This document shows positions 1 to 21,274 of a DNA stretch of 64,000 nt, piece by piece. The notes beneath the pieces are model-generated. The model saw only the letters and a list, made by a program, of their open reading frames with translations. It was not told the DNA's origin and did not search any database. How positions within the stretch are numbered: position 1 is the first letter of the stretch; each line of letters starts with the position of its first letter. This DNA is from Escherichia coli. GTDB taxonomy: Bacteria; Pseudomonadota; Gammaproteobacteria; Enterobacterales; Enterobacteriaceae. Made by a program: the position numbers and the translations under genes. Location: NCBI RefSeq assembly GCF_041886205.1, contig NZ_CP169029.1; one strand, 5' to 3'.

Positions 1-16
1 TTATCTCGTCATCAAT

Positions 17-223
17 ATGAATTGCCAACGGCTCCGTGATAGTGGTTTCACATATATAAAAACTTATATTTTTAGTACATTAGCCATCTATGTCATCTCT
101 TTCATCACAATGATTGTCGAACATTTTGACTGTTCCGGTAATGGTCCGATGATTTTTTTGATTTTTTATTTTTCCACCTTTGGCATGTTAGTTCTTGCCC
201 CTACTGATTCACCCCGCAAATAA
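17..223 (+). CDS. yigG: Small hydrophobic membrane protein; frame is open upstream to window edge, so may be 5'-truncated
   Basis: ORF track 68 aa, hydrophobic; sits upstream of yigF and next to corA as in known synteny; AT-rich. Symbol assigned by position only. Confidence 0.4.
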
Positions 224-237
224 TTTATGGAGATTTT

Positions 238-618
238 ATGAGTAAGGATTATATGGAAGATGGTTCATTAACTGAAAAGTGGAAGTACCGCTTTTCTTTT
301 TATGATGAACATGGGTTCCCTGGATTTTGGGGTGCAAGCCCAGAATATAAGAAAGCATTTAAAGCATTAAAACCAAGACAAAGGATAACAATTCAAACAA
401 ATATTATTGCATTTTTCTTCTCATGGATCTATTTATTTGTCTTGGGATTATGGAAGAAAGCTATTGTTGTTCTAGTGCTGGCAATATTTTCTTTAATTTT
501 TGGTTACATGATTGGCTATAATGTATTTGGTTTTATCATCGCCGCTTATGTTTCATACAATACCAACAGATGGTTCTATGAAAAAGAAGTAAAAGGTATT
601 AATACCTGGAATTTATGA
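238..618 (+). CDS. yigF: Inner membrane protein YigF (DUF2628-like), 126 aa
   Basis: ORF track 126 aa; two hydrophobic segments; GGAG-like RBS upstream; synteny next to corA. Confidence 0.7.
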   Translation: MSKDYMEDGSLTEKWKYRFSFYDEHGFPGFWGASPEYKKAFKALKPRQRITIQTNIIAFFFSWIYLFVLGLWKKAIVVLVLAIFSLIFGYMIGYNVFGFIIAAYVSYNTNRWFYEKEVKGINTWNL

Positions 619-660
619 ATAACAGGTGGCTTAGCCAGGCTAAGCCACCGCTCTCGTTTT

Positions 661-1611
661 TTACAACCAGTTCTTCCGCTTAAAGTACAGATACGGTGCC
701 AGGCCCGCGAGTATCATAAAGATAATCGCGCCTGGGTAACCAAAGCTCCACTTCAGTTCCGGCATAAACTCAAAGTTCATCCCATAGCTGGAAGCAACCA
801 GCGTTGGCGGCAGGAACACGACGGATACCACCGAGAAGATTTTGATAATGCGGTTCTGCTCGATGTTGATAAAGCCCATCGCCGCCTGCATCAGGAAGTT
901 CACCTTCTGGAACAGAGATTCGTTATGCGGCAGCAGGGATTCGATATCTCGCAGGATTTCACGCGCCTGCTCCAGTTGCCCGCCCGGTAAACGCGCCTTA
1001 CGCACCAGGAAGTTGAGCGCACGCTGGGTATCCATCAGACACAGGCGAACTTTCCAGCCGATATCTTCCAGTTCCGCCAGCGTGGAGAGCGCCTCGTCGT
1101 ACTCATCGCCCTGATGCCCTTCCATAATTACCCGGCTCAACTGCTCCAGATCGCTGTAGATGTTTTCAATTTCATCTGCCAACTGTTCGATTTTGGTTTC
1201 GAACAGATCCAGCAGCAACTCGTAGGCGTTACCGTCTACCATCGACTGGCTACGGGCACGCATACGATACAGACGAAAAGCGGGCAGTTCACGCTCACGC
1301 AGAGTAAACAGACGACCATCACGGATGGTAAATGCCACAGTGGAGTTACCGGCGTGATCTTCCGCATCTTCAAAGAAGAAGAAGGAGTGAATATGCAGGC
1401 CGTCGTCGTCTTCAAAGAAACGTGCCGATGCTTCGATGTCTTCCAGTTCCGGGCGGGTTGCCAGGCTCTGGCCAAGTTCAGATTGTACGCGCAGTCGCTC
1501 GTCGTCGTCCGGTTCGACAAGATCAATCCATACTGCATTTACAAGGGGTTGTGACTCTTCGACTTCCAGCCGGGTCAGTCGGTTATTTTCCAGTTGAAAT
1601 GCGCTCAGCAT
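661..1611 (-). CDS. corA: Magnesium/cobalt transport protein CorA
   Basis: ORF translation has native N-terminus [10 protein letters not shown] (start trimmed 5 codons from ORF-track start) and C-terminal YGMNFE pore motif with two TM segments; 316 aa. Confidence 0.95.
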
Positions 1612-1980
1612 GACCGGGACTCCCAATGCTTAAAATATCGGACAGTTCGGTGGGCACACAGAAACAAATTGGGTTTCAGACCATTAAACAGCCTGACTCA
1701 GCGCGACGGGAAAAATTGAGGTCGCTGACAACCGCTAAGGCTATCAGCAAAAAGGGATAGCCTTAGGAGTTGATCCTGGATGACAGGATAGTGAGCCAGT
1801 ATCTACTGGGTGTGTCCAAGGCGAATGTCCTCTTAGAGTGATCGTGCGCGCATGTTACGCCAGCAAAATTTTGCCGTCAACACGCAACAGAACACCACAG
1901 AACAATAGTTGAACTTCGCGCTTTTTGGTACTCGTCAAGGTCGCTAACAGGATAAAAAAATCCCACATCCAGGACCTATA

Positions 1981-2745
1981 ATGGCGCATCGGCTACTCAT
2001 TGGTAAAGGAATGATCACCTTGAATCTCAAACGGATTTTTCTCACCCTCACCTTACTTCCCTTGTTTGCTGTTGCCGCTGATGATTGCGCACTCTCAGAT
2101 CCGACGCTGACCGTACAGGCGTATACCGTTAATCCTCAAACAGAGCGGGTGAAAATGTACTGGCAAAAAGCCAATGGCGAAGCGTGGGGAACGTTACATG
2201 CTCTGCTGGCGGATATGAATAGTCAGGGTCAGGTGCAGATGGCGATGAACGGCGGCATCTATGATGAAAGCTATGCGCCGCTCGGTTTGTACATCGAAAA
2301 CGGTCAGCAGAAGGTGGCGTTAAATCTCGCTTCAGGTGAAGGGAATTTCTTTATTCGTCCTGGCGGCGTGTTTTATGTCGCGGGAGATAAAGTCGGCATC
2401 GTTCGTCTGGATGCCTTTAAAGCCAGTAAAGAGATTCAGTTTGCGGTGCAGTCAGGGCCAATGTTGATGGAAAACGGTGTAATTAATCCGCGTATTCATC
2501 CCAACGTCGCCTCACGCAAAATTCGTAACGGTGTTGGGATTAATAAACATGGGAACGCCGTGTTTTTGTTGAGCCAGCAGGCAACAAATTTTTATGATTT
2601 TTCCTGTTATGCCAAAGCGAAACTGAACGTTGAGCAGCTGCTTTATCTTGATGGCACGATTTCACATATGTATATGAAAGGCGGGGCAATCCCGTGGCAA
2701 CGCTATCCTTTTGTCACCATGATTTCCGTCGAGCGGAAAGGTTAG
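1981..2745 (+). CDS. yigE: Exported protein YigE (DUF2233), signal peptide present
   Basis: ORF track 254 aa with N-terminal signal-like hydrophobic segment; located between corA and uvrD. Confidence 0.8.
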   Translation: MAHRLLIGKGMITLNLKRIFLTLTLLPLFAVAADDCALSDPTLTVQAYTVNPQTERVKMYWQKANGEAWGTLHALLADMNSQGQVQMAMNGGIYDESYAPLGLYIENGQQKVALNLASGEGNFFIRPGGVFYVAGDKVGIVRLDAFKASKEIQFAVQSGPMLMENGVINPRIHPNVASRKIRNGVGINKHGNAVFLLSQQATNFYDFSCYAKAKLNVEQLLYLDGTISHMYMKGGAIPWQRYPFVTMISVERKG

Positions 2746-2783
2746 AATGATAGTTTTGTGTCAGATACTAAATATGCTGCTGA

Positions 2784-2890
2784 TGCCGGAAGCGGCGTAA
2801 ACGCCTTATCCGGCCTACATGACGTTGCAATTTATTGAATCTGAATGATTTTTTAGGCCAAATAAGGTGCGCAGCACCGCATCCGGCAAC
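2784..2890. repeat. RIP/BIME-type element: two inverted REP (GCCGGATG...) copies flanking an IHF-like core cgttgcaatttattgaat
   Basis: Palindromic REP units readable directly; the same core recurs at 21311-21415. Confidence 0.8.
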
Positions 2891-2891
2891 G

Positions 2892-17743: not shown

Positions 17744-18940
17744 ATGCTAAAAGTGTTATTGCTCTTTGTGTTGCTGATTGCGGGGATCGTGGTTGGCCCG
17801 ATGATTGCCGGTCATCAGGGTTATGTGCTGATCCAGACCGACAACTACAATATCGAAACCAGCGTCACGGGCCTCGCGATTATTTTGATTCTGGCGATGG
17901 TAGTACTGTTTGCCATTGAGTGGCTACTGCGGCGGATCTTCCGCACTGGCGCGCACACCCGTGGGTGGTTTGTCGGGCGTAAGCGTCGCCGTGCACGTAA
18001 GCAGACCGAACAGGCGCTGCTGAAACTGGCGGAAGGCGATTATCAGCAAGTTGAAAAGCTGATGGCGAAAAATGCCGATCACGCGGAACAACCGGTGGTG
18101 AACTATCTACTGGCTGCCGAAGCCGCGCAACAACGTGGTGATGAAGCACGCGCCAACCAACATCTGGAACGCGCAGCGGAGCTGGCCGGCAATGACACCA
18201 TTCCGGTAGAAATCACCCGTGTACGTCTGCAACTGGCCCGTAATGAAAACCATGCTGCACGCCACGGCGTGGATAAGCTGCTGGAAGTTACGCCACGCCA
18301 TCCGGAAGTATTACGTCTGGCAGAACAGGCGTATATCCGCACAGGTGCATGGAGTTCGCTGCTGGATATTATCCCATCAATGGCGAAAGCCCATGTTGGT
18401 GATGAAGAACATCGTGCAATGCTGGAACAACAGGCATGGATTGGCCTGATGGATCAGGCGCGTGCCGATAACGGTAGCGAAGGTTTGCGTAACTGGTGGA
18501 AAAACCAAAGCCGGAAAACGCGTCATCAGGTAGCGTTGCAGGTGGCAATGGCGGAACATCTTATTGAATGTGACGATCATGATACTGCCCAGCAAATTAT
18601 CATCGACGGCCTGAAACGCCAGTATGACGATCGTCTGCTGCTGCCGATTCCGCGTCTGAAAACCAATAACCCGGAACAGCTGGAAAAAGTGCTGCGCCAA
18701 CAGATCAAAAACGTCGGCGATCGCCCGCTGTTGTGGAGCACACTGGGTCAGTCGCTGATGAAGCACGGCGAATGGCAGGAAGCATCGCTCGCCTTCCGTG
18801 CAGCGCTGAAACAACGTCCGGACGCCTACGATTACGCATGGCTTGCCGACGCGCTGGACAGACTGCACAAGCCGGAAGAAGCCGCAGCGATGCGTCGCGA
18901 CGGTTTGATGTTAACGTTGCAGAATAACCCGCCACAGTAG
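17744..18940 (+). CDS. hemY: HemY, TPR-containing inner membrane protein
   Basis: 398 aa; two N-terminal TM segments; follows hemX with a 2-nt gap. Confidence 0.9.
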   Translation: MLKVLLLFVLLIAGIVVGPMIAGHQGYVLIQTDNYNIETSVTGLAIILILAMVVLFAIEWLLRRIFRTGAHTRGWFVGRKRRRARKQTEQALLKLAEGDYQQVEKLMAKNADHAEQPVVNYLLAAEAAQQRGDEARANQHLERAAELAGNDTIPVEITRVRLQLARNENHAARHGVDKLLEVTPRHPEVLRLAEQAYIRTGAWSSLLDIIPSMAKAHVGDEEHRAMLEQQAWIGLMDQARADNGSEGLRNWWKNQSRKTRHQVALQVAMAEHLIECDDHDTAQQIIIDGLKRQYDDRLLLPIPRLKTNNPEQLEKVLRQQIKNVGDRPLLWSTLGQSLMKHGEWQEASLAFRAALKQRPDAYDYAWLADALDRLHKPEEAAAMRRDGLMLTLQNNPPQ

Positions 18941-18950
18941 TTCCTTCTCA

Positions 18951-18980
18951 CCCGGAGGAAAGCACCTCCGGGACCTTTCT
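18951..18980 (+). terminator. Hairpin cccggagg-N6-cctccggg followed by a T-containing tract; likely hemCDXY terminator
   Basis: Perfect 8-bp stem immediately after hemY stop. Confidence 0.5.
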
Positions 18981-18987
18981 GATGCAT

Positions 18988-19194
18988 AAAAAAACGCCTG
19001 CTCTTATTACGGAGCAGGCGTTAAAACAGGTCTGTATGACAACAAGTGGGTGCTTCACTCAACGTTGTGTCCATGGTGTCTGATGAGGCATAAGCGACAT
19101 CTGTCAGTGGACGATAAGCACCGTAAACGGCTCTGCGTCATTCCGGAGTTTATGAGGCACTAAGGCGAACATAAGAGATAGAATGAGCATCTAC
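18988..19194 (-). ncRNA. glmZ: GlmZ small RNA (SraJ/RyiA), about 207 nt, with intrinsic terminator
   Basis: Minus-strand sequence starts GTAGATGCTCATTCCATCTCTTATG... and ends in hairpin AACGCCTGCTC...GAGCAGGCGTT plus U7; known location between hemY and aslA. Confidence 0.8.
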
Positions 19195-19618
19195 TCGTTT
19201 ATTATGCCACAGAGAATCGGGAAATAACATCCCTTAACACTTGTTATGAGATAATTCTGTACCCCTCTTTGCTTCCTGAGTAATAACTTCCTGAGTGAAT
19301 ATTTACCCTGAGCTTGATTCTACACATACTCATTATGAATGATAAAATTCATTCAATTAATAACACATATATTAATTGCTGTTAAAACTAAAAACAGCAT
19401 CAATAATCAACGCGATATAATAAACCTGCCTTACATATCAACTGCGCCAGAGGTAGGATTGAAAATGCTCTCCTGATTTTTAAATTCATTTTTGGGATAA
19501 ATAAATAATTTATTTTTATCACTATTATTTATGCAATCATCCTGTCAGGGAGAGGGATCTCAATTATCAATGCTTAATTACGTCATCATTTTGATGACAT
19601 GAAACCGGAGCATTTTGC

Positions 19619-21274
19619 ATGGAATTTTCGTTTTCACCCAAACTTCTTGTTGTTGCTGTCGCCGCCGCTCTTCCTCTCATGGCCAGCGCAGCTGATACCC
19701 CGTCAACTGCCACCGCACGCAAAGGCTTTGCCGGATACGATCACCCAAACCAGTATCTGGTTAAACCGGCGACCACTATTGCCGACAACATGATGCCAGT
19801 AATGCAGCATCCGGCGCAGGATAAAGAAACCCAGCAGAAGCTGGCAGAACTTGAGAAAAAAACCGGTAAGAAGCCCAACGTAGTGATCTTTCTTCTGGAT
19901 GACGTGGGCTGGATGGACGTCGGCTTTAACGGCGGCGGCGTGGCAGTGGGTAACCCTACACCAGATATCGACGCCGTTGCCAGCCAGGGGCTGATTTTAA
20001 CTTCGGCGTATTCTCAACCAAGCTCTTCCCCAACCCGCGCCACCATTCTCACCGGACAATACTCCATCCACCACGGCATTCTGATGCCGCCAATGTACGG
20101 GCAACCGGGCGGGCTGCATGGGTTAACCACGCTGCCGCAGTTGCTGCACGATCAGGGCTACGTCACTCAGGCCATCGGGAAATGGCATATGGGAGAAAAC
20201 AAAGAGTCGCAGCCGCAGAACGTTGGCTTTGATGATTTCCGTGGCTTTAACTCGGTGTCTGATATGTACACCGAATGGCGCGACGTTCACGTAAACCCGG
20301 AAGTGGCCCTGAGTCCGGACCGTTCTGAATACATCAAGCAATTACCGTTCAGCAAAGATGACGTTCATGCAGTGCGCGGCGGCGAACAACAGGCCATTGC
20401 CGACATTACGCCGAAATATATGGAAGATCTGGATCAACGCTGGATGGACTATGGCGTTAAGTTCCTCGACAAGATGGCGAAGAGCGATAAGCCTTTCTTC
20501 CTCTATTACGGCACTCGCGGCTGTCACTTCGATAACTACCCGAACGCCAAATATGCGGGTAGCTCTCCGGCGCGCACCTCTTACGGCGACTGCATGGTGG
20601 AGATGAACGATGTGTTCGCTAATCTGTATAAAACACTGGAGAAAAACGGTCAGCTTGATAACACGCTGATCGTCTTTACCTCCGATAACGGACCGGAAGC
20701 CGAAGTACCGCCGCACGGACGCACACCGTTCCGTGGTGCGAAAGGTTCGACCTGGGAAGGCGGCGTTCGCGTACCGACTTTCGTTTACTGGAAAGGGATG
20801 ATCCAACCGCGTAAATCTGACGGTATTGTCGATCTGGCAGATCTCTTCCCTACCGCGCTGGATCTGGCAGGGCATCCTGGAGCGAAAGTGGCGAATTTAG
20901 TGCCGAAAACCACCTTTATCGATGGTGTGGACCAGACATCCTTCTTCCTGGGAACAAATGGTCAGTCTAACCGTAAGGCCGAGCACTACTTCCTCAACGG
21001 TAAACTCGCTGCTGTGCGTATGGATGAGTTCAAGTATCACGTCCTGATTCAGCAACCTTACGCTTATACCCAGAGCGGATATCAGGGTGGATTCACCGGC
21101 ACAGTAATGCAAACGGCGGGATCGTCGGTGTTTAACCTGTACACCGATCCGCAGGAAAGCGACTCTATCGGCGTGCGCCATATTCCGATGGGTGTACCGC
21201 TACAGACCGAAATGCACGCATATATGGAGATCCTGAAAAAATATCCACCACGCGCGCAGATTAAATCTGATTAA
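19619..21274 (+). CDS. aslA: Arylsulfatase AslA (Ser-type sulfatase, S-x-P-x-R motif), periplasmic
   Basis: 551 aa; signal peptide; sulfatase signature [13 protein letters not shown] around nt 20027-20045. Confidence 0.9.

What the first reader, a model, noticed from the sequence alone, without database searches (positions are those of the whole stretch)
1..620. AT-rich block encoding two small membrane proteins at the window edge
Positions 1-620 are markedly AT-rich (by eye below 40% GC) and encode two short hydrophobic proteins (yigG-like, possibly truncated by the window edge, and yigF). The composition contrasts with adjacent corA and suggests an old horizontally acquired islet or H-NS-bound region.
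Basis: seen in the sequence. Interest (0 to 1): 0.25.

Follow-up and report, generated by a model that had tools for sequence, protein, structure and literature searches.

The report
AT-rich yigG-yigF islet beside corA
The AT-rich block is real and is the known E. coli yigG-yigF pair of small inner-membrane protein genes, an old, H-NS-silenced type of islet; the only unusual point is that this window carries a rare, strongly divergent allele in a chromosomal slot that varies greatly between strains.

Summary
Window 1-620 has 32.9% GC against 52.3% for the window, the lowest of all 620-bp windows (z = -5.2). It holds the last 73 codons of a yigG-type gene, cut by the window edge, and a complete yigF-type gene (DUF2628). 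A bidirectional terminator hairpin follows, then convergent corA.

Both genes are real: dN/dS is 0.10-0.33, and AlphaFold models are confident helical membrane proteins. The low GC lies at silent positions (GC3 0.29-0.33 against 0.62 in the flanks), so hydrophobic amino acids do not explain it.

The pair sits between rarD and corA in at least eight enterobacterial genera, always 10-19 GC points below its flanks. It has no mobility signatures. It is therefore an old, vertically kept islet.

For the K-12 allele, published work already shows H-NS binding, an extended protein occupancy domain, a "promoter island" and an H-NS-repressed promoter inside yigG.

New here:
- The window allele is rare (8 of 5,426 complete E. 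coli genomes).
- It is only 76-81% identical in DNA to K-12 yigF and yigG, with synonymous divergence up to ten times that of the flanks.
- About half of E. coli carry a type VI secretion effector-immunity cassette in this slot, usually instead of yigG-yigF.

Protein function remains unknown.

The parts
2..223 (+). 3' part of a yigG-type gene: codons 54-126 plus the TAA stop. It encodes a 126-aa, four-helix inner-membrane protein distantly related to DUF805. The 5' part lies off the left edge of the window.
   Evidence: The frame is open to the window edge. The full ORF is at L001 3843-4223 in a 100%-identical genome. NCBIfam NF008474 (YigG equivalog) scores 201.9 bits, below its cutoff of 217. 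Pfam DUF805 gives E = 9e-4, below its gathering score. dN/dS is 0.12-0.33. The AF2 model has pLDDT 86.5.
1..143 (+). Stretch homologous to the K-12 'yigG 1.2' fragment, which carries an H-NS-repressed, AT-tract-dependent intragenic promoter. The AT-tract is at about 53-75 and the -10 TACATT at 76-81. The K-12 extended -10 TG is changed to TA here.
   Evidence: 87.4% identity to the fragment sequence printed in PMC7229825. Promoter activity in this allele is inferred, not tested.
229..232 (+). GGAG Shine-Dalgarno sequence for yigF, 5 nt before the ATG. The gap between the yigG stop and the yigF start is 14 nt, which fits a bicistronic arrangement.
   Evidence: Read directly from the sequence.
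238..618 (+). Complete yigF-type gene. It encodes a 126-aa DUF2628 inner-membrane protein with a charged N-terminal part (1-53), a hydrophobic conserved IYLFVLGLWKK segment, and a helical hairpin (72-92, 96-119).
   Evidence: Pfam PF10947 scores 46 bits against a cutoff of 23. RefSeq annotates WP_000031249.1 at this position. dN/dS is 0.10-0.20. The AF2 model has pLDDT 91.8. Conserved motifs appear across 44 homologues.
625..662 (.). Bidirectional intrinsic-terminator-like hairpin (GGTGGCTTAGCC A GGCTAAGCCACC, 11-12 bp) with a T-run on the plus strand. It is shared by the convergent yigF and corA genes and marks the right-hand boundary of the AT-rich block.
   Evidence: repeat I3. It is conserved in all three yigGF alleles.
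661..1611 (-). corA (Mg2+/Co2+ transporter). This conserved flanking core gene is not part of the islet. Its 3' half carries raised between-allele divergence.
   Evidence: RefSeq annotation. GC is 52.9%. The 3' half is 5-6% divergent between allele classes, while the 5' half is identical.

Best explanation
Window 1-620 is the right-hand two-thirds of the yigG-yigF islet, a roughly 0.9-kb AT-rich two-gene cassette between the core genes rarD and corA.

Shown:
- It encodes two small polytopic inner-membrane proteins under purifying selection. YigG has four helices and lies on the fringe of DUF805. YigF belongs to DUF2628.
- The genes are arranged as an operon, with a 14-nt gap and a Shine-Dalgarno sequence before yigF.
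- The operon ends at a hairpin shared with convergent corA.
- The cassette entered this slot once in an ancestor of a large part of Enterobacteriaceae. It has been kept there without mobility genes.
- It has stayed AT-rich at silent sites and evolves many times faster than its flanks.
- In Escherichia it exists as deeply divergent allele classes that move between lineages and species by homologous recombination through the conserved flanks.
- This window carries a rare mosaic allele.

Inferred from published K-12 data and from retained sequence properties: the AT-rich DNA is coated by H-NS, forming a small extended protein occupancy domain. That keeps the operon and its many spurious intragenic promoters largely silent under laboratory conditions.

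Inferred weakly: the two proteins act together in the inner membrane as an accessory envelope function that affects surface properties and stress tolerance. They would be expressed only when silencing is relieved.
For: - Composition: 32.9% GC, z = -5.2. GC1/2/3 is .31/.34/.33 for yigG and .33/.33/.29 for yigF, against .63/.33/.62 for corA and .51/.39/.62 for the 10-TM protein RarD. The deficit is therefore at silent and first positions, not a result of hydrophobic residues.
- Coding: dN/dS is 0.10-0.33. YigF hits Pfam DUF2628. AF2 pLDDT is 86.5 and 91.8.
- Age and synteny: rarD-yigG-yigF-corA is found in Escherichia spp., Salmonella, Superficieibacter, Atlantibacter, Kosakonia, Phytobacter and Mangrovibacter. 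Shared indels define a slot-type YigF clade. The cassette GC is below the flanks in every genus. There are no repeats, tRNA or integrase.
- Fast evolution: between genera YigF is 34-79% and YigG 21-50% identical to the window proteins, where RarD is 81-88% and CorA 91-95%.
- Allele classes: dS between window and K-12 is 1.18 (yigF) and 0.47 (yigG), against 0.11-0.12 for rarD and corA.
- Inter-species exchange: the 'Esc2' allele matches E. albertii yigF at 99.5%, while corA differs at dS 0.30. The breakpoint lies at the terminator.
- Mosaic: the window allele is K-12-like upstream and Esc2-like in yigF.
- Census: 8, about 622 and about 2,312 genomes carry the three alleles, out of 5,426.
- H-NS, EPOD and promoter island for the K-12 allele: PMC3661553, PMC8282354 and PMC7229825.
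- The window allele keeps a fivefold excess of -10-like hexamers and the mapped promoter's AT-tract and -10.
- Phenotype hint: Salmonella yigG deletion mutants attach less to plastic and produce and tolerate chlorine less well (PMC3579871).
Against: - No H-NS occupancy or expression data exist for this allele. Silencing is extrapolated from K-12, which is 76-81% identical in the coding DNA.
- A physical YigG-YigF interaction is not shown. The two proteins are not homologous. DUF2628 homologues outside the slot occur without a YigG-like neighbour. In O157 a YigG-family gene is paired with a different small membrane ORF.
- Absence from Klebsiella, Citrobacter and Enterobacter is only suggested by their absence from the protein and genome hit lists. 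Those slots were not inspected.
- The Salmonella phenotypes are modest and only partly complemented.
Confidence: 0.8

Rival explanations
1. The two small membrane proteins are an immunity-like or protective module for inter-bacterial competition. They would protect against a membrane- or envelope-targeting effector. Their deep allele classes would reflect selection to match different attackers, and the rarD-corA slot would be a competition-cargo hotspot.
For: - The same slot carries a DUF3289 (colicin-M-like effector) plus DUF943 (immunity) pair in 2,627 of 5,426 E. coli, also at 32% GC (PMC11148199).
- An orphan DUF943 sits next to yigF in E. whittamii.
- The proteins are small inner-membrane proteins with deep allele classes that are exchanged between species.
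- O157 has a third, very divergent YigG-family gene with a different partner.
Against: - No toxin gene is adjacent to yigG-yigF in any genus examined.
- dN/dS is well below 1.
- Synteny is stable across at least eight genera, which is unlike mobile effector-immunity pairs.
- There are no PADLOC or PHROGs hits.
- Neighbours of distant DUF2628 homologues are housekeeping genes.
- Sharing a slot with an effector-immunity cassette shows a recombination-permissive site, not a shared function.
Confidence: 0.12
2. The islet is a recent horizontal acquisition that has not yet drifted toward the host's composition.
For: - GC is very low at all codon positions.
- Earlier compositional methods predicted it as foreign (PMC3661553, Table 1).
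- Alleles clearly move between Escherichia species.
- The window allele is rare and mosaic.
Against: - The cassette occupies the same slot in at least eight genera, and shared indels define one clade.
- It is AT-rich relative to its flanks in all of them.
- There are no mobility genes, repeats or tRNA.
- A remnant of the yigG 5' end persists in strains that lost the pair, so the pair was ancestral there.
- What is recent is allele replacement by homologous recombination, not acquisition of the islet.
Confidence: 0.05
3. The AT-richness is only a by-product of encoding very hydrophobic proteins rich in Phe, Ile, Leu, Tyr, Asn and Lys, with no bearing on origin or silencing.
For: Both proteins are rich in Phe, Ile and Leu.
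Against: - GC2 of yigG and yigF (0.33-0.34) equals that of corA (0.33) and is close to that of the 10-TM transporter RarD (0.39).
- GC3 is 0.29-0.33 against 0.62.
- The 14-nt spacer and the upstream non-coding DNA are equally AT-rich.
Confidence: 0.03
4. The ORFs are spurious or decaying, so the block is effectively non-coding AT-rich DNA.
For: - PGAP does not annotate the yigG-type ORF in the eight genomes that carry this allele.
- Many truncated or partial homologues exist in databases.
- About 46% of E. coli lack the pair.
Against: - dN/dS is 0.10-0.33 over many allele pairs.
- ORFs of conserved length (around 121-128 codons) are found across genera.
- Motifs are invariant: N-x-Q/M-R-x-R-D-x-G in YigG, and LGLWKK and Y-E/L-KEVK in YigF.
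- The AF2 models are confident.
- The missing annotation is explained by a curated score cutoff (201.9 against 217).
Confidence: 0.02

Closest known systems
E. coli K-12 yigG-yigF (b3818-b3817 region): the H-NS-bound 'promoter island' and small EPOD between rarD and corA
   Same: - Same slot, gene order, gene lengths (126 + 126 codons), spacing and shared terminator.
- Same low GC: 33-35%.
- Same protein families.
- The excess of -10-like hexamers and the mapped intragenic promoter's AT-tract and -10 are retained.
   Different: - DNA identity is only 81.6% over the cassette, 81% in yigG and 76.5% in yigF.
- Protein identity is 72% (YigG) and 75% (YigF).
- dS is up to 1.18 against 0.11 in the flanks.
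- The window YigG scores below the NCBIfam equivalog cutoff and is left unannotated.
- The extended -10 TG of the K-12 intragenic promoter is lost.
- H-NS binding has not been measured for this allele.
E. albertii / E. coli 'Esc2-type' yigG-yigF allele (for example WP_001532065.1 + WP_000031247.1)
   Same: This is the closest allele class. YigF is 89-90% and YigG 86% identical in protein, and the DNA is 88.6% identical over the cassette. The window's yigF half is 93-98% identical to it in 60-bp windows.
   Different: - The window allele is a mosaic. Its upstream region and the first 15 or so codons of yigG are K-12-like, and the middle of yigG matches neither class well.
- dS to the albertii-type yigF is 0.27-0.29, about the E. 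coli-E. albertii species distance (corA 0.30).
- The Esc2 type is found in about 622 genomes; the window type in 8.
Xenogeneic, H-NS-silenced AT-rich islets of Enterobacteriaceae (the general class)
   Same: It is an AT-rich block of about 0.9 kb embedded in roughly 52% GC core DNA. It is dense in promoter-like hexamers. Its genes are of unknown function, non-essential and variably present (PMC3661553; PMC7229825).
   Different: It is unusually small and old. It lacks mobility genes, is fixed in one syntenic slot across genera, and is under purifying selection.
DUF3289/DUF943 colicin-M-like T6SS effector-immunity cassette (PMC11148199)
   Same: It occupies the same rarD-corA slot in other E. 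coli and has the same roughly 32% GC. It is also a two-gene cassette ending at corA.
   Different: The proteins are unrelated: a 282-aa DUF3289 effector and a 165-aa DUF943 immunity protein. It is absent from this window. It arrives with a duplicated corA 3' fragment. There is no evidence that yigG-yigF are an effector or an immunity protein.

Membership tests
Pfam DUF2628 (PF10947): YigF | Score above the Pfam gathering threshold across the domain | tested here: met
   46.0 bits against a cutoff of 23, E = 7.3e-12, residues 17-117 matching profile positions 9-91 of 93.
Pfam DUF2628 (PF10947): YigF | Conserved core motifs shared with distant members (K-W-x-x-R-F-x-F, LGLWKK, Y-x-KEVKG) | tested here: met
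   K14, W15, R18, F19, F21, L69-G70-L71-W72 and K74 are invariant in 44 homologues from Enterobacteriaceae, Pseudomonas, Pantoea, Dyella and Nocardia.
NCBIfam NF008474 (PRK11371, YigG equivalog) | Whole-protein score at or above the curated cutoff (217 bits) | tested here: not met
   The window-type YigG scores 201.9 bits. The K-12 YigG scores 255.6. Homology is not in doubt (72% identity, same slot), but the curated equivalog rule fails. This explains why PGAP leaves the ORF unannotated in all eight genomes.
Pfam DUF805 (PF05656): YigG | Score above the gathering threshold (25.7 bits) | tested here: not met
   20.2 bits, E = 8.7e-4. Only 6 of 14 slot-type YigG homologues reach E below 0.01.
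Pfam DUF805 (PF05656): YigG | Remote homology: a family profile reaches bona fide DUF805 proteins, and the R-x-R-D-x-G loop motif lies between helices 2 and 3 | tested here: inconclusive
   A YigG profile search of 1.84 billion representatives found only 48 hits at E of 1e-3 or better. The weak tail (E 5e-5 to 7e-4) includes proteins that score 76-83 bits on DUF805. R63, R65, D66 and G68 are invariant. This suggests a narrow, divergent offshoot of DUF805.
H-NS-silenced AT-rich islet / promoter island / EPOD | AT-rich block well below the genome GC | tested here: met
   32.9% against 52.3%, z = -5.2.
H-NS-silenced AT-rich islet / promoter island / EPOD | Abnormally high density of promoter-like signals | tested here: met
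   TATAAT with at most one mismatch occurs at 27.4 per kb against 5.2 per kb in the rest of the window, the top of 634 windows. Five of the six full sigma-70-like sites in window 1-2000 lie within 1-620.
H-NS-silenced AT-rich islet / promoter island / EPOD | Measured H-NS occupancy and de-repression in an hns mutant | not testable with these tools
   Published only for the K-12 allele (PMC3661553 Table 1; PMC8282354; PMC7229825).
Mobile genomic island | Integrase or transposase, flanking direct repeats, insertion at a tRNA or tmRNA gene | tested here: not met
   The 912-bp cassette holds only the two genes. There are no significant flanking direct or inverted repeats and no tRNA.
T6SS effector-immunity pair / known anti-phage defence system | Match to a known effector, immunity or defence family, or adjacency to one | tested here: not met
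   No PADLOC or PHROGs hits for either protein. No DUF3289 or DUF943 lies in the window, where yigF is followed directly by corA.

The most novel reading that the evidence does not exclude
The rarD-corA slot is a long-lived 'replaceable cargo' site of Enterobacteriaceae. AT-rich two-gene membrane-protein cassettes are swapped in it by homologous recombination through the conserved flanks. The cargo includes several yigG-yigF allele classes, a YigG-family gene with a different partner in O157, and a colicin-M-like T6SS effector-immunity pair. The deep, trans-species yigG-yigF allele classes would be maintained by balancing or frequency-dependent selection, because the pair has an envelope-protective, immunity-like role in inter-bacterial or phage conflict. 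The rare window allele would be one such specificity variant.
Probability: 0.12. Interest if true: 0.55.

Novelty: already known. Interest (0 to 1): 0.2.

Why it matters
As stated, the finding re-discovers a published feature: the AT-rich, H-NS-bound yigF-yigG islet of E. coli. It therefore matters little on its own.

The follow-up adds modest value.
- The islet is ancient and syntenic rather than recently acquired, and its low GC sits at silent sites. It is a clean small example of an AT-rich silenced locus that has persisted for a long time without drifting toward the genome's composition.
- E. coli holds at least three yigG-yigF alleles whose synonymous divergence is up to ten times that of the flanks. 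One of them is shared almost identically with E. albertii.
- The same slot holds a type VI secretion effector-immunity cassette in about half of the strains, usually in place of yigG-yigF.
- There is a practical annotation point. The yigG-type gene of this allele, and a YigG-family gene in O157:H7, are missed by RefSeq annotation because of a family score cutoff.

Tried and rejected
- YigG and YigF as paralogues, since both are 126 aa. Rejected: hhalign probability 0.2%.
- Defence or phage origin. No PADLOC or PHROGs hits. The phage-collection hits are two tiny unannotated records.
- Plasmid origin. The plasmid hits are mislabelled chromosomes or chromosome pieces, or 37-46% identical homologues on Pantoea, Duffyella and Kosakonia replicons.
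- Gene-neighbourhood inference from distant DUF2628 homologues. The neighbours are unrelated housekeeping genes, and no YigG-like partner is present.
- An RNA element in the block. No Rfam match lies in 1-620. The terminator-like hairpin at 274-296 inside yigF is not conserved in the K-12 allele.
- Literature on polymorphism of the rarD-corA slot. Two searches were unproductive.
- Early identity-band counts were misleading. The 40 bp of corA in that query produced '>=99%' hits, so the census was redone with coding-only queries.

Full report
**1. The observation**

Window 1-620 has 32.9% GC. The whole window is 52.3% and the adjacent corA gene 52.9%. Among all 620-bp windows (mean 52.4%, sd 3.8%) it is the minimum, at z = -5.2.

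The frame of positions 2-223 is open to the left edge. It encodes the last 73 residues of a protein ending ...APTDSPRK. Positions 238-618 encode a complete 126-aa protein.

The window is 100% identical to the chromosome of E. coli LHM10-1, with window position 1 equal to L001 position 4001. There the left ORF is an intact 126-codon gene (L001 3843-4223). The gene order is rarD, yigG-type, yigF-type, then convergent corA, ysgD, yigE and uvrD.

**2. Are the ORFs real genes, and what are the proteins?**

- YigF-type: Pfam DUF2628, 46 bits against a cutoff of 23.
- YigG-type: 72% identical to K-12 YigG. It scores 201.9 bits on the NCBIfam YigG equivalog, whose cutoff is 217. That explains why RefSeq annotates only the DUF2628 gene in all eight genomes with this allele.
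- YigG is a fringe relative of DUF805 (20.2 bits against 25.7). A profile of 14 slot-type YigG proteins found only 48 representative clusters among 1.84 billion proteins. The weak tail of that list contains genuine DUF805 proteins.
- Nei-Gojobori dN/dS between alleles is 0.12-0.33 for yigG and 0.10-0.20 for yigF. Both genes are therefore under purifying selection.
- AlphaFold2 gives a four-helix bundle for YigG (pLDDT 86.5).
- For YigF it gives a helical N-terminal part, a broken hydrophobic helix carrying the invariant IYLFVLGLWKK motif, and a long helical hairpin (pLDDT 91.8).
- By the positive-inside rule, both proteins probably have their N- and C-termini in the cytoplasm. This is an inference.
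- The two proteins are not homologous to each other.
- Neither structure nor sequence searches of the PDB were informative.

**3. What the low GC means**

| Gene | GC1 | GC2 | GC3 |
|---|---|---|---|
| yigG | .31 | .34 | .33 |
| yigF | .33 | .33 | .29 |
| corA | .63 | .33 | .62 |
| rarD (10-TM transporter) | .51 | .39 | .62 |

Second positions are alike, so amino-acid composition does not explain the deficit. It lies at silent and first positions.

**4. Age and origin**

A scan of one genome per species and tblastn of flank proteins place the yigG-yigF pair between rarD and corA in:
- several Escherichia species;
- Superficieibacter, Atlantibacter, Kosakonia, Phytobacter and Mangrovibacter;
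- Salmonella, seen in a serovar Omuna contig.

A YigG-family ORF precedes yigF in every case (HMM E from 1e-44 to 6e-5).

The slot-type YigF proteins share an N-terminal 4-5-residue insertion. They lack two insertions and the C-terminal tail found in Pseudomonas, Pantoea, Pragia, Dyella and Nocardia homologues. This argues for one acquisition.

In each genus the cassette is 10-19 GC points below rarD and corA. There are no flanking repeats, tRNA or integrase. The islet is therefore old and vertically retained, yet it has stayed AT-rich.

It evolves fast. Between genera YigF falls to 34-79% identity and YigG to 21-50%, where RarD is 81-88% and CorA 91-95% identical.

**5. H-NS**

I could not measure binding. 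For the K-12 allele the literature is explicit.
- yigF/yigG is a 663-bp 'promoter island'. It is bound by H-NS in all the ChIP studies compared and was predicted foreign by two methods (PMC3661553, Figure 1 and Table 1).
- It is shown as a small extended protein occupancy domain (PMC8282354).
- yigG contains an H-NS-repressed intragenic promoter that needs an upstream AT-tract (PMC7229825).

The window allele keeps the sequence properties. It has 27 near-consensus -10 hexamers per kb against 5 per kb elsewhere. Five of the six sigma-70-like sites in window 1-2000 lie within 1-620. Window 1-143 is 87% identical to the mapped promoter fragment. The AT-tract and the TACATT -10 (76-81) are intact, although the extended -10 TG is lost.

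**6.

Census over 5,426 complete E. coli genomes, using the 776-bp coding query:

| Identity to window | Genomes | Allele |
|---|---|---|
| 99% or more | 8 (pig, pigeon, poultry, human, frog, bear) | window allele |
| 80-90% | 622 | 'Esc2' class (89.5% in the listed examples) |
| 60-80% | 2,312 | K-12 class |
| any match | 2,947 (54%) | all yigG-yigF types |

Synonymous divergence between window and K-12 is 1.18 for yigF and 0.47 for yigG. For rarD and corA it is 0.11-0.12.

The Esc2 yigF is 99.5% identical to E. albertii yigF (dS 0.014), while their corA genes differ at dS 0.30. Identity drops from 99-100% to about 94% at the terminator. This is clear inter-species exchange of the cassette.

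The window allele is a mosaic:
- K-12-like from the rarD stop through the first 15 or so codons of yigG (93-98%);
- Esc2-like across the yigG 3' end and yigF (93-98%);
- distinct from both in between.

Its yigF differs from the albertii type at dS 0.27-0.29, about the species distance. The corA 3' half carries 5-6% divergence between allele classes, and the 5' half none. That fits recombination tracts ending inside corA.

**7. Other cargo in the same slot**

- In 2,627 genomes the slot carries a DUF3289/YPO3983 protein plus a DUF943 protein. These were shown experimentally to be a periplasm-acting, colicin-M-like candidate T6SS effector and its immunity protein (PMC11148199). This cassette is also 32% GC.
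- Because 2,947 + 2,627 exceeds 5,426, at least 148 genomes have both cassettes. One example is OkiPb01703: rarD-yigG-yigF-corA'-DUF3289-DUF943-corA.
- The effector cassette arrives with a duplicated 147-bp corA 3' fragment. In Atlantibacter it also brings a rarD 3' fragment. This suggests entry by recombination from a donor that carried it in the same slot.
- A B2-type strain that lacks yigG-yigF still has a remnant of the yigG 5' end, so the pair was ancestral there.
- O157:H7 SS52 has an unannotated, very divergent YigG-family ORF (E = 1e-22 against the family profile). It is paired with a different 104-aa membrane ORF on the other strand.

**8. Function**

Nothing ties the proteins to a known mechanism.
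- There are no PADLOC or PHROGs hits.
- Distant DUF2628 homologues sit among housekeeping genes, without a YigG-like partner.
- The only phenotypes found are for Salmonella yigG deletion mutants: reduced attachment to polystyrene, spinach and tomato, and poorer growth under chlorine stress, with partial complementation (PMC3579871).

My committed reading is an H-NS-silenced bicistronic operon for two accessory inner-membrane proteins that probably act together on envelope properties. I hold the identity, architecture, age and silencing type of the islet at about 0.8 confidence. I hold the protein function much lower.

An immunity-like role in bacterial conflict is the most interesting reading not excluded. 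The evidence for it is only circumstantial: a shared slot, deep exchanged alleles and small membrane proteins. Evidence against it is low dN/dS, stable synteny and the absence of an adjacent toxin. I put it at about 0.12.

**9. Verdict**

The finding is real and correctly interpreted, and it is essentially known biology. The added facts are a rare divergent mosaic allele, an ancient syntenic origin, persistent silent-site AT-richness, inter-species allele exchange, and an effector-immunity cassette that alternates with yigG-yigF in the same slot. These are of moderate specialist interest and leave the classification unchanged.

Noticed in passing
L004 3623-4965; L005 3910-5564; L006 2338-4007; L013 4432-6459 (same slot as window 1-660 in other genomes): In 2,627 of 5,426 E. 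coli the rarD-corA slot carries a DUF3289 (colicin-M-like candidate T6SS effector) plus DUF943 (immunity) cassette at 32% GC. It is accompanied by a duplicated 147-bp corA 3' fragment, and in Atlantibacter also by a rarD 3' fragment. This suggests insertion by recombination from a donor that carried it in the same slot. At least 148 genomes carry both this cassette and yigG-yigF.
   Followed up: partly
L006 1927-2313 (+) and 1412-1726 (-), E. coli O157:H7 SS52: An unannotated 128-aa ORF is a very divergent YigG-family member (E = 1e-22 against the family profile, with no Pfam hit). It is paired with a 104-aa membrane ORF on the opposite strand instead of yigF. This is a third cargo type in the slot.
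   Followed up: partly
L001 3843-4223 (window 2-223 is its 3' part): The intact yigG-type gene of this allele is not annotated by PGAP in any of the eight genomes carrying it. It scores 201.9 bits against the 217-bit cutoff of NCBIfam NF008474.
   Followed up: yes
L009 4487-4975 (Escherichia whittamii): An orphan DUF943 immunity-type gene lies between yigF and corA, with no DUF3289 effector.
   Followed up: no
window 661-1100 (corA 3' half): The corA 3' half is 5-6% divergent between strains with different yigG-yigF allele classes, while the 5' half is identical. This fits recombination tracts that end inside corA.
   Followed up: partly
window 2746-2891, with an Rfam match at 2776-2815 (-): The yigE-uvrD spacer holds a REP/naRNA4-like element (36.4 bits, below the gathering score of 59.5). 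Other E. coli (L002, L004, L006) instead have a 300-aa 'SAM hydrolase/SAM-dependent halogenase family' gene there. This is a second presence/absence polymorphism 2 kb from the islet.
   Followed up: no
window about 18,870-19,930: This is the second most AT-rich stretch of the window (minimum 36.5% GC per 620 bp). It coincides with the 678-bp unannotated hemY-aslA intergenic region in strain LHM10-1.
   Followed up: partly
L010 (CASFSC010000152.1, 1,564-bp contig of an 'uncultured Alistipes sp.' MAG): This contig encodes K-12-type rarD'-yigG-yigF-corA' with 100% CorA identity. It is almost certainly an E. coli contig mis-binned into a Bacteroidota MAG.
   Followed up: no
window about 1763-1819 (-): The corA leader carries the annotated 18-codon ysgD/CorL small ORF, and a terminator-like hairpin lies at 1722-1750 (-). 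Both are known features, noted only for completeness.
   Followed up: no
Salmonella (L087 4001-4783; PMC3579871): Salmonella also appears to have divergent yigG alleles and presence/absence variation. The Omuna YigG is about 50% identical to the E. coli proteins. The paper reports LT2 YigG as 82% identical to K-12 YigG and reports the gene as absent from S. Enteritidis.
   Followed up: no
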